A stretch of 64,000 bases of DNA from a virus (lineage: Duplodnaviria; Heunggongvirae; Uroviricota; Caudoviricetes): IMG/VR virus record IMGVR_UViG_2627853701_000009. One strand, 5' to 3'. This document shows positions 6,101-32,998 of the stretch, piece after piece. The notes under the pieces are model-generated. The model ran no database searches. It was given only the letters and a program-made list of their open reading frames with translations, and had not been told where the DNA came from. Position numbers and translations under genes: made by a program. Numbering within the stretch: position 1 is the first letter of the stretch; each line of letters begins with the position of its first letter.

Positions 6101-6661
6101 GTCCGCTGTCTCCCGGACCATCCGGATGTTAAAGGGCCGCTCAGGCAGATTATCCAGAATCACCGACGCCAGAAACTGCGAGGTGGTCTTGCCGTTAATG
6201 GTGACATCCTTTTCCGTCACCCAGTTACCGTTACGCTGCAACTGAATCAGCAGTCGGACAGAAGAGGGATTACGGTCGCCCTTTGAGGTGGTCTCCAACA
6301 GTGACTGCACCCCGAAGGTGACCCGCAGGCGGTCAATGTTCGCGGACGTAATGGTGCGCGTCACCGGCTTTGCTTTCGTCACTTCCACGCCCAGTGCGGT
6401 TTCCGCCCCGGAGGACTCAAAGCCTTCAGGTGGTGTCTGCTCCTGCTCCCCGGCGCGCCAGACCGCTGTCACACCATGTATCACAGGATTACCGTCCGTG
6501 TCCGTCAGCGGGGTTTTGTTCACCAGGATACTCTGCAGCCCCTTCACCGGACCTTCAATCGGCCCTTCACCAATGGCGTCAATCACGCTCATCATCTGCG
6601 TGGACTTAAGATTGTCCTTTGCCTCTACCGGCGTGTGCCCCTTGCCGCCCCCTTTACCCAC
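3185..6661 (-). CDS. J: Tail tip host-specificity protein J (central tail fibre), 1158 aa from GTG
   Basis: Collinear with lambda J over full length; GTG start inferred because the upstream in-frame ATG extension is not conserved in copy B. Confidence 0.9.
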
Positions 6662-6735
6662 TCTGTCCCCCTCTCCTGTCTGATGTCTGAATCTGTTTAT
6701 GCCAGAAAACAACAGGCACCCCGGAGGTGCCTGTG

Positions 6736-6855
6736 TCATGACGGAATAAAATTTCTGAAACTCTTCACATTTCCGGCAATTGCCTGTAGCCGCAATAATG
6801 ACGCTGCATTACTTTTTTGATGCCTGAAAAATAACTCCATAACGTTAATCTTCAT
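6736..6855 (-). CDS. Candidate 39-codon ORF inside the inserted I-J intergenic region ([16 protein letters not shown]...)
   Basis: ATG with GGAG about 8 nt upstream; identical in copy B; flanked by two hairpins; no homolog recalled. Confidence 0.25.
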
Positions 6856-6900
6856 CGTTCTCTCCCGCAGCTCCGCTAACTCTGCGGGATTTTTTTATTT

Positions 6901-7578
6901 TCATCCCCGCCCGATAACCACCACTTTCCCGTCTCCGCCCTCATCACGGGTACTGATGTCCTGGGAGATTCGCCGGGAGCCAACCAGCATTTCACCGTAA
7001 GGCACCGGCATCGGGTTCCCCTGGGCAATCATGTTATCCAGCGAGGAAAAGTACGTGTTCTGTCTGCCGTTATCCGTTGCGCGGTAATCCGGTGTTTTTG
7101 CCTTCGGGGCCAGCATCTGGGCCACACCGCCCAGAATCATGCTGGCTCCAAGTGAAAACAGCATCGTGGTGGCAGAAAAACCACCGGCTGCCAGGGCTGA
7201 ACCCCATAACGCCATTGATGCCCCGGCAGTGAAGAAAGAGCCCACGATGGCTGCCGCCCCCAGCACAATCTGCAGTCCACCCTTTCCGGCCCCGGCCAGT
7301 CGCGGCACAATGTGGATGACCGTTCCCTCACCCAGCTGTTCGTGAAGACGGGCGTACACCGCCTCCGGTGCCGTGTCTTCACCGCGAATACGTATCTGGT
7401 ACCAGCCTTCGTTCATCTGACGGCGGAATCCCGGCATCTGCAGCGACAGGGCACGGATGGCTTCCGCTGCCGTGTTCACGTACAGGCTGAGGCGGCGGCC
7501 AAATCGTTGCAAATCCCCGTGAAGGCAGATGCGTGCCAGTGGCGGTGACGCCAGACAGAATGCGTTCGTCGTTGCCAT
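6901..7578 (-). CDS. I: Tail tip assembly protein I
   Basis: MATTNAFCLASPPLARICLHGDLQRFGRR... matches lambda I. Confidence 0.9.
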   Translation of the reverse strand: MATTNAFCLASPPLARICLHGDLQRFGRRLSLYVNTAAEAIRALSLQMPGFRRQMNEGWYQIRIRGEDTAPEAVYARLHEQLGEGTVIHIVPRLAGAGKGGLQIVLGAAAIVGSFFTAGASMALWGSALAAGGFSATTMLFSLGASMILGGVAQMLAPKAKTPDYRATDNGRQNTYFSSLDNMIAQGNPMPVPYGEMLVGSRRISQDISTRDEGGDGKVVVIGRG

Positions 7579-32245: not shown

Positions 32246-32998
32246 TTACCCTGCAGCGCCCGCTTCAGTAACGGTGACTTCAGCCACTGCGGCGAACTGA
32301 CCATTTCCGCTCACCACAGGGATCTGCACCTTACCTGTCGCCACGCCGTTTACCGTAATTGTCATATCTTTCACACTAATGGTGGCTTTCGACGGATCGG
32401 CGGAAACCGCTCTGAACGTCTTGTCGGTTGCACTTTCCGGCTCAAAAGAAACCGTCAGGGTGGTTGTTTTCCCTTTTGCCACCGTACCGGATGTCGGTGT
32501 CACCTTAATTGCAGTGGCCGGCGTAATTTCGCTGCGTTCTTCCGCCACGGAAGGTTTGCCCACGTTAGTGACTTTCACCGTGCGGGTGATCACTTCTTTC
32601 GCCGTCACGGCCTTACCGATACTGCTGACCCAGCCACGGAACACATCCACCGTGCCATTTGGGAAACGGATTTTATAGGCCCGCACATCCCCGCTTTCAA
32701 ACCAGCCTATAAGCCCTTTCTGACCTTCTTCTCCCGGTTTCCAGGCCAGCGTAAAACTGGTATCTCCTGCAGACTTCTGCCCCTGCCCGGTCGCGGTCCA
32801 GTCCGCGTCTTCATCATCCAGGTAGTTATCATCGTAGGGTTCTGCCGTCATCTCGCCCGGCGTCAGATCCTTCACCTTAGCCAGTCGCTGCCAGTCATCG
32901 TCTGACAACGGGTTTGCATAAGCATCACCCTTGCCGTTGTAAACCCACAGAGTGGTACCGGCACCTTTTACCGGCTCAAGGGGATTTGGTGTTGCCAT
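32246..32998 (-). CDS. V: Major tail protein V (copy B)
   Basis: 250 aa identical to copy A. Confidence 0.9.

What the first reader, a model, noticed from the sequence alone, without database searches (positions are those of the whole stretch)
6662..6900. Inserted I-J intergenic region with two hairpins and a 39-codon ORF, conserved in both copies
In lambda the I stop and J start are essentially adjacent; here about 240 bp intervene (also 26193-26432). It contains a hairpin with T-run right after the I stop on the plus strand, a second hairpin CAGGCACC-TCCGG-GGTGCCTG followed by a U-rich tract immediately before the J ribosome-binding site on the mRNA strand, and a small ORF whose stop overlaps an ATG. 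It may attenuate J expression or encode a small protein or antisense RNA.
Basis: seen in the sequence. Interest (0 to 1): 0.5.

Follow-up and report, generated by a model that had tools for sequence, protein, structure and literature searches.

The report
Known prophage small RNA, PasB family
The 240-bp gap between tail genes I and J of these E. coli O157:H7 prophages carries a small regulatory RNA gene that has already been detected experimentally (EcOnc22-24 in strain Sakai, a relative of PasB in EPEC), read opposite to the tail genes, together with a hairpin terminator in front of J of the kind lambda also has; the 39-codon ORF is not conserved.

Summary
I (6901-7578, minus) and J (true start GTG 6661) are separated by 239 bp, and by 240 bp in the second copy (26193-26432).

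The spacer is not an unknown insert. Copy 2 is 100% identical to the I-J spacers of Sakai prophages Sp11, Sp14 and Sp15, and copy 1 differs by one deleted base in the T2 loop. In those spacers Tree et al. 2014 mapped the Hfq-bound sRNAs EcOnc22/23/24: about 85 nt by northern, destabilised without Hfq. Their probe equals the window's minus strand, so the RNA is plus-strand, antisense to the tail operon, and ends at the hairpin plus T-run beside the I stop codon. It is a relative of the 83-nt EPEC sRNA PasB, which lies in the same slot.

Comparison across variants shows a conserved terminator, a conserved seed (GUUAAUCUUC), -10 elements and a CRP-like box. The ORF's start codon and frame are lost in most variants.

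The second hairpin is a conserved sense-strand terminator. Lambda has an analogous one in its own 60-nt I-J gap, so that gap is not "essentially adjacent".

Verdict: already known, low interest. Small additions are the PasB/EcOnc22-24 link, a CRP-like promoter box and the I-J slot as a moron hotspot.

The parts
6806..6896 (+). PasB-family sRNA gene (= EcOnc22/23/24 of Sakai), maximal extent. The 5' end is either about 6806 (upstream -10) or about 6821-6822 (the position matching the reported 5' end of EPEC PasB). The 3' end is the T-run.
   Evidence: Covariance model hit 6806-6896, 86.9 bits, E 5e-14. Alignment to the 83-nt PasB of E2348/69. The first 23 nt of the EcOnc22/23/24 northern probe match the minus strand at 6866-6844. 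Copy 2 is 100% identical to Sakai Sp11/14/15 and copy 1 differs by one base. The Hfq-CRAC peaks fall here after the roughly +128 coordinate correction.
6862..6896 (+). T1: intrinsic terminator of the sRNA (stem CCCGCAG/CTGCGGG, T7 run 6890-6896). It ends 5 nt before the I stop codon on the other strand.
   Evidence: Terminator scan. Exact pattern match. Seven pairs are conserved in 24 variants, two of them with compensatory changes.
6844..6853 (+). Conserved stretch GUUAAUCUUC just 5' of the terminator, the likely seed. No pairing is predicted for it in the consensus of the variants, although in this variant's own predicted fold it is partly paired.
   Evidence: It is among the most conserved stretches of the RNA body across variants. 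For this variant's own fold. The Storz-lab preprint places the proposed PasB seed in this region. Other seed types occupy the same position in tandem modules.
6810..6815 (+). Candidate -10 element TACTTT (TAnnnT), here called P(down). It predicts a start at about 6821-6822.
   Evidence: By my reading of the module listings, TAnnnT is kept in every module that is followed by an sRNA body. It lies 6 nt upstream of the reported 5' end of PasB in E2348/69.
6794..6799 (+). Candidate -10 element AATAAT, here called P(up). It predicts a start at about 6806.
   Evidence: xATAAT is conserved in nearly all variants and is TATAAT with TTCACA 16 nt upstream in E2348/69. It is lost in the second tandem module of L064/L075 and in the sodC class.
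6754..6769 (+). CRP-like box TCTGA-N6-TCACA, at the upstream edge of the sRNA gene module.
   Evidence: One mismatch to TGTGA-N6-TCACA. The pentamers are invariant or nearly so and the spacer varies in 38 unique modules, at fixed spacing to the -10 elements. The box is retained with every tandem module. That CRP binds it is inferred.
6703..6734 (-). T2: sense-strand intrinsic-terminator-like hairpin (ACAGGCACC / GGTGCCTGT) with the U-tract UUGUUUUCU, about 40 nt upstream of the J ribosome-binding site.
   Evidence: Terminator scan. A 50-nt stretch around it folds at dG -22.6 kcal/mol, z -4.3. 97.7% of cells are paired in 13 variants and one pair shows C-G to U-A changes. Lambda-type phages have an analogous hairpin.
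6736..6855 (-). 39-codon ORF ([10 protein letters not shown]...IPS). Judged non-coding: it is the complement of the sRNA and its promoter region.
   Evidence: It is intact in only 3 of 9 variant groups and is truncated to 22 codons in E2348/69. No Pfam or PHROG hit. GRAVY 0.03 and no hydrophobic segment.
6661..6676 (-). J ribosome-binding site (GGAGAGGGGGA) and true J start codon GTG at 6661.
   Evidence: Translation matches the lambda J N-terminus.
26338..26428 (+). Second copy of the sRNA gene, in the second prophage tail module.
   Evidence: Covariance model hit, 86.9 bits. Identical sequence. Probe match at 26398-26376.
26193..26432 (.). Second copy of the whole I-J spacer (240 bp), including its T2 hairpin and the CRP-like box at 26286-26301.

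Best explanation
The I-J spacer is a moron slot of the lambdoid tail operon. In these O157:H7 prophages it holds a stand-alone small-RNA gene oriented against the tail genes.

- The RNA: about 76-91 nt on the window plus strand, ending at 6896. It is the sRNA published as EcOnc22/23/24 in strain Sakai, and it is a diverged relative of the EPEC sRNA PasB.
- Transcription: it starts from its own sigma-70 promoter in the middle of the spacer and stops at the hairpin plus T7 run that abuts the I stop codon.
- Action: it binds Hfq and depends on Hfq for stability (published). It most likely acts in trans by pairing its conserved stretch GUUAAUCUUC, just upstream of the terminator, with target mRNAs (inferred; no target has been validated).
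- Promoter control: a conserved TGTGA-N6-TCAGA box at the upstream edge of the gene suggests CRP-dependent transcription (inferred).
- Second hairpin (T2): it is not part of the sRNA. It is a sense-strand intrinsic terminator that stays just upstream of the J ribosome-binding site in most spacer classes (the 343-346-bp class has a different terminator and the sodC class has none), and lambda has an analogous one. In a lysogen it would stop any non-antiterminated transcription leaving the slot toward J. Q-modified polymerase would read through it during lytic growth (inferred).
- The 39-codon ORF is a chance reading frame across the complement of the sRNA gene.
For: Identity with a detected RNA:
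- Window copy 2 is 100% identical to the Sakai Sp11, Sp14 and Sp15 spacers; copy 1 differs by one base.
- Tree et al. 2014 Table S2 lists plus-strand Hfq-CRAC peaks EcOnc22/23/24 in exactly these three prophages. EcOnc22 gave a northern band of about 85 nt that was destabilised in a delta-hfq strain.
- The peaks fall in the I-J spacer once the roughly +128 offset between NC_002695.1 and NC_002695.2 is applied. I checked that offset with the HnrS/mazF 15-mer.
- The first 23 nt of their northern probe equal the window minus strand at 6866-6844, so the RNA detected is plus-strand.

Relation to PasB:
- PasB is 83 nt, lies on the minus strand at NC_011601.1 1466343-1466261, between the tail assembly gene and gpJ, and is antisense to them.
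- Its probe matches the T1 hairpin of variant spacers.
- The window RNA aligns with it end to end, and a covariance model of the family scores the window copies at 86.9 bits.
- PasB RNA falls by log2 -6.8 and -2.4 in the delta-hfq strain.

Conservation across 38-45 unique spacers:
- T1 stem with compensatory changes, the seed block, the -10 elements and the CRP-like box at fixed spacing.
- PasB is higher in overnight LB culture than in DMEM, which fits CRP control but is not specific to it.

T2:
- It has terminator features and is conserved.
- Lambda-type phages keep an analogous hairpin, even downstream of a lipoprotein moron inserted in the sense direction.

ORF:
- Not conserved.
Against: - No expression data exist for this strain. 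Everything rests on sequence identity with Sakai.
- The 5' end is unresolved. The EPEC 5' end and the fully conserved TAnnnT favour a start near 6821. The CRAC peak start (about 6812 after correction) and the northern size of about 85 nt fit neither candidate start (about 75 or about 91 nt) closely.
- No target or phenotype has been published for PasB or EcOnc22-24, so trans-acting regulation is an inference from Hfq binding and from RIL-seq partner counts.
- A one-mismatch CRP core is not rare: 8 matches in the window against 2.1 expected. The box centre is at -60.5/-61.5 only for the downstream start and at about -44.5 for the upstream one.
- The sodC-class spacers have no terminator before J, so an insulator is not obligatory.
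- T2 shows little covariation: control shuffles reach the observed score in 68 of 500 trials.
Confidence: 0.82

Rival explanations
1. Cis-acting control of J. The second hairpin (T2) acts as a partial terminator or mRNA-structure element that lowers or gates expression of J relative to the upstream tail genes during lytic growth.
For: T2 is a strong terminator-like hairpin directly upstream of the J ribosome-binding site. It is conserved. Lambda-type phages keep an analogous hairpin at the same place, which suggests selection on the junction itself.
Against: By established lambda biology, late transcription from PR' is carried out by Q-modified, terminator-resistant polymerase, so little attenuation is expected. 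The sodC-class spacers lack any such hairpin. The hairpin does not pair with the J ribosome-binding site in the predicted folds. This idea also says nothing about the larger, sRNA-bearing part of the spacer.
Confidence: 0.2
2. The sRNA works mainly in cis as an antisense RNA. It would pair with the I-J junction of late mRNA from its own and sibling prophages and trigger cleavage or block J expression, for example to silence leaky tail-gene expression or to interfere with related induced phages.
For: The RNA is perfectly complementary to the sense transcript between I and J. Its seed complement GAAGATTAAC is present in the sense strand of most variant spacers. Genomes carry up to 9 copies.
Against: The RNA is Hfq-dependent and has 37 RIL-seq partners in EPEC, the pattern of a trans-acting sRNA. 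No chimeras with the flanking genes E2348C_1436 or E2348C_1437 were found in the truncated RIL-seq table that was available. The overlap does not reach the J ribosome-binding site, which lies about 130 nt away.
Confidence: 0.12
3. A second, sense-strand small RNA. Under this idea the conserved block from the CRP-like box to T2 (about 6790-6703, minus strand) is transcribed divergently from the sRNA promoter region and ends at T2.
For: The stretch TTTTATTC(C/A)GTCATGA between the box and T2 is more conserved than a promoter or a terminator alone would require. T2 with its U-tail and an upstream U-rich stretch resembles an Hfq-binding module.
Against: The promoter scan finds no sense-strand promoter. 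No Hfq chimeras from this region were found. Tree et al. list no minus-strand peak there, although their filter excluded sites within 100 nt of a gene on the same strand. In the longer spacer classes the homology breaks between the box and T2, so the two are separable modules.
Confidence: 0.08
4. The 39-codon ORF encodes a small protein. It could be a moron product, or the toxin of a type I toxin-antitoxin pair whose antitoxin is the antisense sRNA.
For: The ORF has an ATG with GGAG 6 nt upstream. The sRNA overlaps its 5' end in antisense, which is type I TA geometry. Related 39-41-codon frames survive in three variant groups.
Against: The start codon is ACG or ACA, or the frame is interrupted, in 6 of 9 variant groups, and the frame is truncated to 22 codons in E2348/69. 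Indels among variants are not multiples of three. The peptide is basic and not hydrophobic: GRAVY 0.03, best 15-residue window 0.74. No Pfam or PHROG family. No promoter was found for it. It is absent from the Sakai list of translated intergenic small ORFs at the expected coordinates; this is weak evidence, because the region is multi-copy.
Confidence: 0.04

Closest known systems
EcOnc22 / EcOnc23 / EcOnc24 (Tree et al. 2014, Mol Cell; PMC4104026)
   Same: This is the same sequence: the I-J spacers of Sakai Sp15, Sp14 and Sp11 are 100% identical to window copy 2. The strand is the same (antisense to the tail genes). The RNA is Hfq-bound, gives a northern band of about 85 nt and is destabilised without Hfq.
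   Different: Nothing differs apart from the host strain. The paper gives only a peak, a probe and a size. It does not describe the location between I and J, the promoter, the seed or any function.
PasB of EPEC E2348/69 (Pearl Mizrahi et al. 2021, Sci Adv, PMC8550237; Zhu, Shabalina and Storz 2026 preprint, 10.64898/2026.05.13.724894)
   Same: It occupies the same slot (between the tail assembly gene I and gpJ) in the same antisense orientation. It has the same terminator stem, the same position for the proposed seed, and the same promoter and box architecture. It is Hfq-dependent.
   Different: The window RNA is a diverged variant: the body is about 7 nt shorter, the seed is GUUAAUCUUC rather than AUUGAUCUUC, and the region where a -35 element would lie is different and a poorer match to consensus. 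Neither paper links PasB to EcOnc22-24. The preprint reports PasB in 24 phage genomes, whereas the whole spacer family is found in 147 phage records.
Other EHEC prophage moron sRNAs: AgvB and AsxR (anti-sRNAs) and HnrS (EcOnc10-12)
   Same: They are short Hfq-binding sRNAs with their own promoter and terminator, inserted at moron sites of lambdoid prophages. They are multi-copy, and family members share a conserved 3' module with variable seeds.
   Different: They lie at different sites: downstream of PR'/stx for AgvB and AsxR, and between the lysis and terminase genes for HnrS. There is no sequence similarity. The HnrS locus gives no hit with the PasB-family model.
The I-J intercistronic hairpin of phage lambda
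   Same: It is a sense-strand GC-rich hairpin followed by a T-run, a few tens of nucleotides upstream of the J start. It is conserved in 26 spacer variants of lambda-type phages.
   Different: The stem sequence is unrelated (CCGCC/GGCGG against CAGGCACC/GGTGCCTG). The lambda spacer is only 59-60 nt and has no sRNA gene. I know of no assigned function for it (own knowledge).
Prophage sodC morons (Cu,Zn superoxide dismutase genes in lambdoid prophages)
   Same: They occupy the same I-J slot and are also antisense to the tail genes. In the 854-bp spacers sodC sits next to a remnant of the PasB module.
   Different: They are protein-coding cargo. The window has no sodC.

Membership tests
PasB / EcOnc22-24 sRNA family | Sequence and structure similarity to the published RNAs | tested here: met
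   Copy 2 is 100% identical to the Sakai EcOnc22/23/24 loci and copy 1 differs by one base. End-to-end alignment with the 83-nt PasB. Covariance model score 86.9 bits, E 5e-14, for both window copies.
PasB / EcOnc22-24 sRNA family | Location between tail genes I and J, on the strand opposite to them | tested here: met
   Window layout. Sakai annotation. E2348/69 annotation and PasB coordinates.
PasB / EcOnc22-24 sRNA family | 3' stem-loop followed by poly-U (intrinsic terminator and Hfq-binding module) | tested here: met
   Terminator scan. Conserved 7-bp stem with two compensated pairs. T7 run at 6890-6896.
PasB / EcOnc22-24 sRNA family | Conserved seed just upstream of the terminator that is unpaired in the family consensus | tested here: met
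   The GTTAATCTTC block is conserved and no pairing is predicted for it in the consensus fold. In this variant's own predicted fold it is partly paired. This position agrees with the preprint's proposal.
PasB / EcOnc22-24 sRNA family | Expressed, Hfq-bound RNA of about 80-85 nt | not testable with these tools
   This was shown by others for identical DNA in Sakai and for PasB in EPEC. There are no data for the strain of this window.
HnrS (EcOnc10-12) | 66-nt sRNA between the lysis and terminase genes, with a 15-nt complement to the 3' end of mazF | tested here: not met
   The EcOnc10 coordinates and the mazF-complementary 15-mer lie between the lysis and terminase genes of Sakai Sp12 (L001). 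The PasB-family model gives no hit in L001.
Type I toxin-antitoxin system | Conserved small toxin ORF | tested here: not met
   The ORF is intact in only 3 of 9 variant groups; elsewhere the start codon is lost or the frame is broken.
Type I toxin-antitoxin system | Hydrophobic or membrane-spanning toxin peptide | tested here: not met
   GRAVY 0.03, best 15-residue window 0.74, net charge +5.
Type I toxin-antitoxin system | Antisense RNA overlapping the toxin mRNA | tested here: met
   The sRNA (6806/6821-6896, plus strand) overlaps the ORF start at 6855. This is geometry only.
Intrinsic (Rho-independent) terminator, for T2 | GC-rich stem-loop immediately followed by a U-tract on the transcribed strand | tested here: met
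   10 pairs, 6 of them G-C, 3-nt loop, then TGTTTTCT. A 50-nt stretch around it folds at dG -22.6, z -4.3. 97.7% of cells are paired across variants.
Intrinsic (Rho-independent) terminator, for T2 | Causes transcript 3' ends in vivo or in vitro | not testable with these tools
   The Term-seq tables for Sakai were not available.
CRP-dependent (class I) promoter | Match to TGTGA-N6-TCACA that is conserved across relatives | tested here: met
   9 of 10 core positions match. The pentamers are invariant or nearly so and the spacer varies in 38 modules. A single site of this quality is not rare by chance: 8 found against 2.1 expected.
CRP-dependent (class I) promoter | Site centred near -61.5 (or -41.5) relative to the transcription start | tested here: inconclusive
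   The centre is at -60.5/-61.5 if transcription starts at the reported PasB 5' end, and at about -44.5 if it starts after the upstream xATAAT. The start site has not been mapped.
CRP-dependent (class I) promoter | CRP binding and cAMP-dependent expression | not testable with these tools
   The only support is circumstantial: PasB is higher in overnight LB culture than in DMEM.
Moron (Juhala et al. 2000) | Extra DNA between conserved late genes, with its own promoter and terminator, variable among relatives | tested here: met
   The slot varies from 59 to 929 bp and carries different cargo. The sRNA gene has its own -10 elements and terminator. Promoter activity is inferred.

The most novel reading that the evidence does not exclude
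The PasB-family RNA may be more than a trans-acting sRNA. It could be a CRP-controlled antisense gate on the I-J junction of late mRNA. Up to nine co-resident prophages would share it, so that in a lysogen it limits expression of the host-specificity protein J from leaky or induced sibling prophages. Tandem arrays of up to four modules with exchangeable seeds would diversify its trans targets.
Probability: 0.1. Interest if true: 0.55.

Novelty: already known. Interest (0 to 1): 0.22.

Why it matters
There is little new here. The plus-strand RNA was detected in 2014 in DNA that is identical to window copy 2 and one base different from copy 1. A close relative was named PasB in 2021 and surveyed in 2026.

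The useful by-products are at the level of curation:
- EcOnc22/23/24 and PasB are one family in one genomic slot. I did not find that link stated in the three papers I read on these RNAs.
- The family is broader than BLAST surveys found. It includes at least three seed types and tandem arrays.
- A conserved CRP-like box gives a testable idea for its regulation.
- The gap between I and J is a recurrent moron slot bounded on the J side by a terminator-like hairpin. Annotators should expect an sRNA there and not call the 39-codon ORF or the upstream ATG of J.

Tried and rejected
- Rfam 15 scan of 6400-7200 at E up to 10 gave only chance hits. No PasB or EcOnc family is in Rfam.
- HnrS was suspected because of its copy number (up to 9) and its prophage location. 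It is rejected: it lies between the lysis and terminase genes and has no similarity.
- A type I toxin-antitoxin reading and a small-protein reading are both rejected on conservation and peptide properties.
- The in-frame ATG at 6739, which extends J by 26 codons, is not conserved.
- A search of the EPEC RIL-seq tables for chimeras involving the flanking genes or a sense-strand RNA found none, but the table was truncated.
- The Sakai list of translated intergenic small ORFs has no entry at the expected coordinates. This is weak evidence because the region is multi-copy and the coordinate offset is uncertain.
- Term-seq and dRNA-seq supplements for Sakai are not held, so the 5' end and T2 usage could not be settled.
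- The promoter scan with strict consensus rules found nothing in 6300-7300. The promoter elements I propose rest on conservation.
Full report
**1. What is in the sequence**

The tail genes lie on the minus strand. I is 6901-7578. J begins with GTG at 6661, and its product starts [22 protein letters not shown] as in lambda J. The longer ORF from the ATG at 6739 that the ORF list reports is an accident of this variant.

The spacer 6662-6900 is 239 bp. A second tail module, 19.5 kb away, has the same spacer at 26193-26432. It is 240 bp and has one extra base in a hairpin loop.

One is on the plus strand (stem within 6862-6889, T7 run 6890-6896). The other is on the minus strand (6734-6712, followed by TTGTTTTCT). 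Sequences containing them fold much better than shuffled controls, with z = -4.1 and -4.3. The 39-codon ORF 6855-6736 exists.

The window is E. coli O157:H7, matching EC4115/TW14359-like genomes at 99.8%.

**2. The spacer is a published sRNA locus**

The spacer is 99.6-100% identical to phage VT1-Sakai and to the I-J spacers of Sakai prophages Sp11, Sp14 and Sp15. RefSeq annotates nothing there.

Tree et al. 2014 (PMC4104026, Table S2) list three homologous Hfq-CRAC peaks, EcOnc22 (Sp15), EcOnc23 (Sp14) and EcOnc24 (Sp11). All are on the plus strand. EcOnc22 gave a northern band of about 85 nt that was destabilised in a delta-hfq strain. Their coordinates refer to NC_002695.1. In NC_002695.2 the I-J spacers of these three prophages lie at 2902691-2902930, 2676622-2676861 and 2166672-2166911.

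I estimated the offset between the two versions as about +128. This rests on the length difference and on the position of the 15-mer of HnrS (EcOnc10) that is complementary to mazF. With that offset the peaks correspond to window positions of about 6811-6872.

The published northern probe for EcOnc22/23/24 gives independent support. Its first 23 nt equal the window minus strand at 6866-6844 and 26398-26376. The RNA detected is therefore plus-strand, antisense to the tail operon, and must end at the plus-strand terminator beside the I stop codon.

HnrS (EcOnc10-12) was my first suspect because of its copy number. It lies elsewhere, between the lysis and terminase genes, and is unrelated.

**3. 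It belongs with PasB**

Pearl Mizrahi et al. 2021 (PMC8550237, Table S6) describe PasB in EPEC E2348/69. It is 83 nt and lies at NC_011601.1 1466343-1466261 on the minus strand, between E2348C_1436 and E2348C_1437. Those genes are the tail assembly protein I and gpJ. They are separated by 240 bp, and PasB starts 6 nt after the I stop on the opposite strand.

- The PasB probe matches the sense strand of the first hairpin in E2348/69 and in 15 IMG/VR loci.
- The window RNA aligns with PasB over its whole length.
- A covariance model built from 24 variants scores both window copies at 86.9 bits (E 5e-14). It finds nothing in lambda or at the HnrS locus.
- PasB RNA drops sharply in the delta-hfq strain, has 37 RIL-seq partners, and is higher in overnight LB culture than in DMEM.
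- The 2026 Storz-lab preprint describes PasB as embedded in an operon of phage structural genes and proposes a seed just upstream of the terminator.

Neither paper mentions EcOnc22-24: Table S6 carries no homologue note for PasB, and the preprint contains no occurrence of 'EcOnc'.

**4. Comparative anatomy**

I collected eighty IMG/VR loci with an EHEC-type J N-terminus. For 73 of them the spacer could be delimited; with the two window copies this gave 45 unique spacers. On the sRNA strand the conserved elements are as follows.

- The terminator stem CCCGCAG/CTGCGGG, which changes to CCCGTAAT/ATTACGGG with compensation in one lineage.
- The block GTTAATCTTC immediately 5' of the terminator, for which no pairing is predicted in the consensus fold. 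In this variant's own predicted fold it is partly paired.
- Two -10-like elements:
  - an xATAAT (window 6794-6799), which in E2348/69 is TATAAT with TTCACA 16 nt upstream;
  - a TAnnnT (window 6810-6815). By my reading of the listings it is kept in every module that is followed by an sRNA body, and it sits 6 nt upstream of the reported PasB 5' end.
- A 22-bp box A(A/T)TTCTGA-N6-TCACATTT. Its pentamers are invariant or nearly so and its spacer varies in 38 unique modules. It lies at fixed distance from the -10 elements and marks the point where homology ends in the longer spacer classes.

The box matches the CRP core TGTGA-N6-TCACA at 9 of 10 positions. Its centre falls at -60.5/-61.5 relative to the PasB 5' end, which is lac-like class I geometry, or at about -44.5 relative to the upstream start. 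A single such match is not rare: 8 occur in the window against 2.1 expected. The case therefore rests on the conservation pattern, and I rate CRP control as plausible but unproven.

The true 5' end remains open. A start near 6821 gives about 75 nt and a start near 6806 gives about 91 nt, against a northern size of about 85 nt.

**5. The ORF**

On the sense strand the ORF runs across the complement of the sRNA body and its promoter. Its ATG lies inside the conserved seed block (ATGAAGATTAAC). In many variants that codon is ACG or ACA. Elsewhere the frame is broken by indels that are not multiples of three.

A 39-41-codon frame survives in 3 of 9 variant groups, and in E2348/69 it stops after 22 codons. 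The residual peptide similarity follows the nucleotide-conserved blocks. The peptide is basic and not hydrophobic, and it has no Pfam or PHROG family. It is not in the Sakai list of translated intergenic small ORFs at the expected coordinates, which is weak evidence. I conclude that it is not a gene. A type I toxin-antitoxin reading fails on its defining features.

**6. The second hairpin**

T2 with its U-tract is well conserved: 97.7% of cells are paired and one pair alternates between C-G and U-A. Covariation is too thin to be statistically telling.

T2 is not part of the sRNA module. In the 343-346-bp and 421-424-bp spacer classes the homology breaks right after the CRP-like box. In the 343-346-bp class a different hairpin terminator (CCCCGGTATC/GATACCGGGG followed by TTTCTCTTT) takes its place.

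Lambda itself has a 60-nt I-J gap, not an adjacency. That gap contains CCGCC-TGCG-GGCGG followed by TTTTGTCATTT. Among 80 lambda-type loci there are 26 spacer variants of 59-60 nt, and by inspection all of them keep that hairpin. A 477-bp class carries a lipoprotein gene inserted in the sense direction (phrog_914) and still ends with the hairpin just before J.

The simplest reading is that a sense-strand terminator is a standing feature of the J-proximal edge of this slot. It would stop non-antiterminated transcription from whatever is inserted there, and Q-modified polymerase would ignore it. This is inference. The sodC class has no such hairpin.

**7. The slot is a moron hotspot**

The I-J slot carries different cargo in different phages:

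- a single PasB-type module, in spacers of 237-263 bp;
- four tandem modules in L064 and L075 (910 and 929 bp), with three seed types: GUUAAUCUUC, GGUUAGUCAAC and GGUGACUAUUC;
- 854-bp spacers in which a Cu,Zn superoxide dismutase gene (Pfam Sod_Cu, E 3.9e-32) on the antisense strand replaces the sRNA promoter and T2, while the sRNA body and terminator remain.

The spacer family occurs in 147 of 50,697 phage records, mostly Stx-converting phages. It also occurs in 780 of 5426 complete E. coli genomes, with a median of 3 and a maximum of 9 copies.

**8. Verdict**

- Observation: confirmed, except for the lambda premise.
- Interpretation: partly right. The antisense RNA is real, the small protein is not supported, and attenuation of J is untested.
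- Novelty: the core of the finding is already known, and its function remains uncharacterised in the literature I could read.
- What I add: the identity link between two published names, a regulatory hypothesis (the CRP-like box), and a description of the slot.
- Interest: low.

Noticed in passing
L064 591-1355 and L075 578-1342 (IMG/VR loci; I-J spacers of 910 and 929 bp): There are four tandem PasB-like modules between I and J. Each has its own CRP-like box, -10 region and terminator, and together they carry three different seed sequences (GUUAAUCUUC, GGUUAGUCAAC, GGUGACUAUUC). This looks like a cassette array of sRNA genes.
   Followed up: partly
L005, L008, L029, L039, L052 (854-bp I-J spacers): A Cu,Zn superoxide dismutase gene (sodC; Pfam Sod_Cu, E 3.9e-32) sits antisense in the I-J slot. 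It replaces the sRNA promoter and the T2 hairpin, while the sRNA body and terminator remain downstream of sodC's own terminator.
   Followed up: partly
L214, L225, L227, L231 (lambda-type J; 477-bp I-J spacers): A 112-aa lipoprotein-like ORF on the sense strand (MNKTILFCTIIALTGCK...; phrog_914, unknown function) is inserted between I and the ancestral hairpin in front of J.
   Followed up: partly
L086 146-205 (phage lambda 15445-15504): Lambda's own I-J gap is 60 nt and contains the hairpin CCGCC-TGCG-GGCGG followed by TTTTGTCATTT. By inspection the hairpin is kept in all 26 spacer variants of 59-60 nt found among lambda-type phages. I know of no function assigned to it.
   Followed up: partly
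window 6739 versus 6661 (minus strand): The mechanical ORF for J starts at the ATG at 6739 (1184 aa). The lambda-like start is GTG 6661, preceded by GGAGAGGGGGA. The 26-codon extension runs through the T2 hairpin and is not conserved, so it is a trap for annotators.
   Followed up: yes
window 6712-6734 versus 26243-26266: Copy 1 lacks one base in the loop of the T2 hairpin (CCTCCGG against CCCTCCGG in copy 2 and in Sakai). This is the only difference between the two spacers.
   Followed up: yes
window 1-34000: Two tail modules about 96-97% identical lie 19.5-20.1 kb apart, so two lambdoid prophages or remnants are adjacent. The best-matching genomes annotate nleA, an integrase and tail fibre genes in this stretch.
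   Followed up: no
Sakai NC_002695.2 (L001-L004): Coordinates in Tree et al. 2014 (NC_002695.1) appear shifted by about +128 relative to NC_002695.2 across 2.17-2.90 Mb. Taken at face value in version 2, the EcOnc22-24 peaks would seem to lie on the T2 hairpin and not on the sRNA.
   Followed up: partly
L002 1-1191 and L004 1-1122 (Sakai Sp15 and Sp14): The J genes of Sp15 and Sp14 are annotated as truncated or split host-specificity proteins (ECs_2943/ECs_2944 and ECs_2720). These prophages probably cannot make a functional J, yet they keep the sRNA gene intact.
   Followed up: no
window 12828-12843 and 32360-32375: There are further one-mismatch CRP-core matches (TGTCATATCTTTCACA), duplicated in both tail modules.
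   Followed up: no
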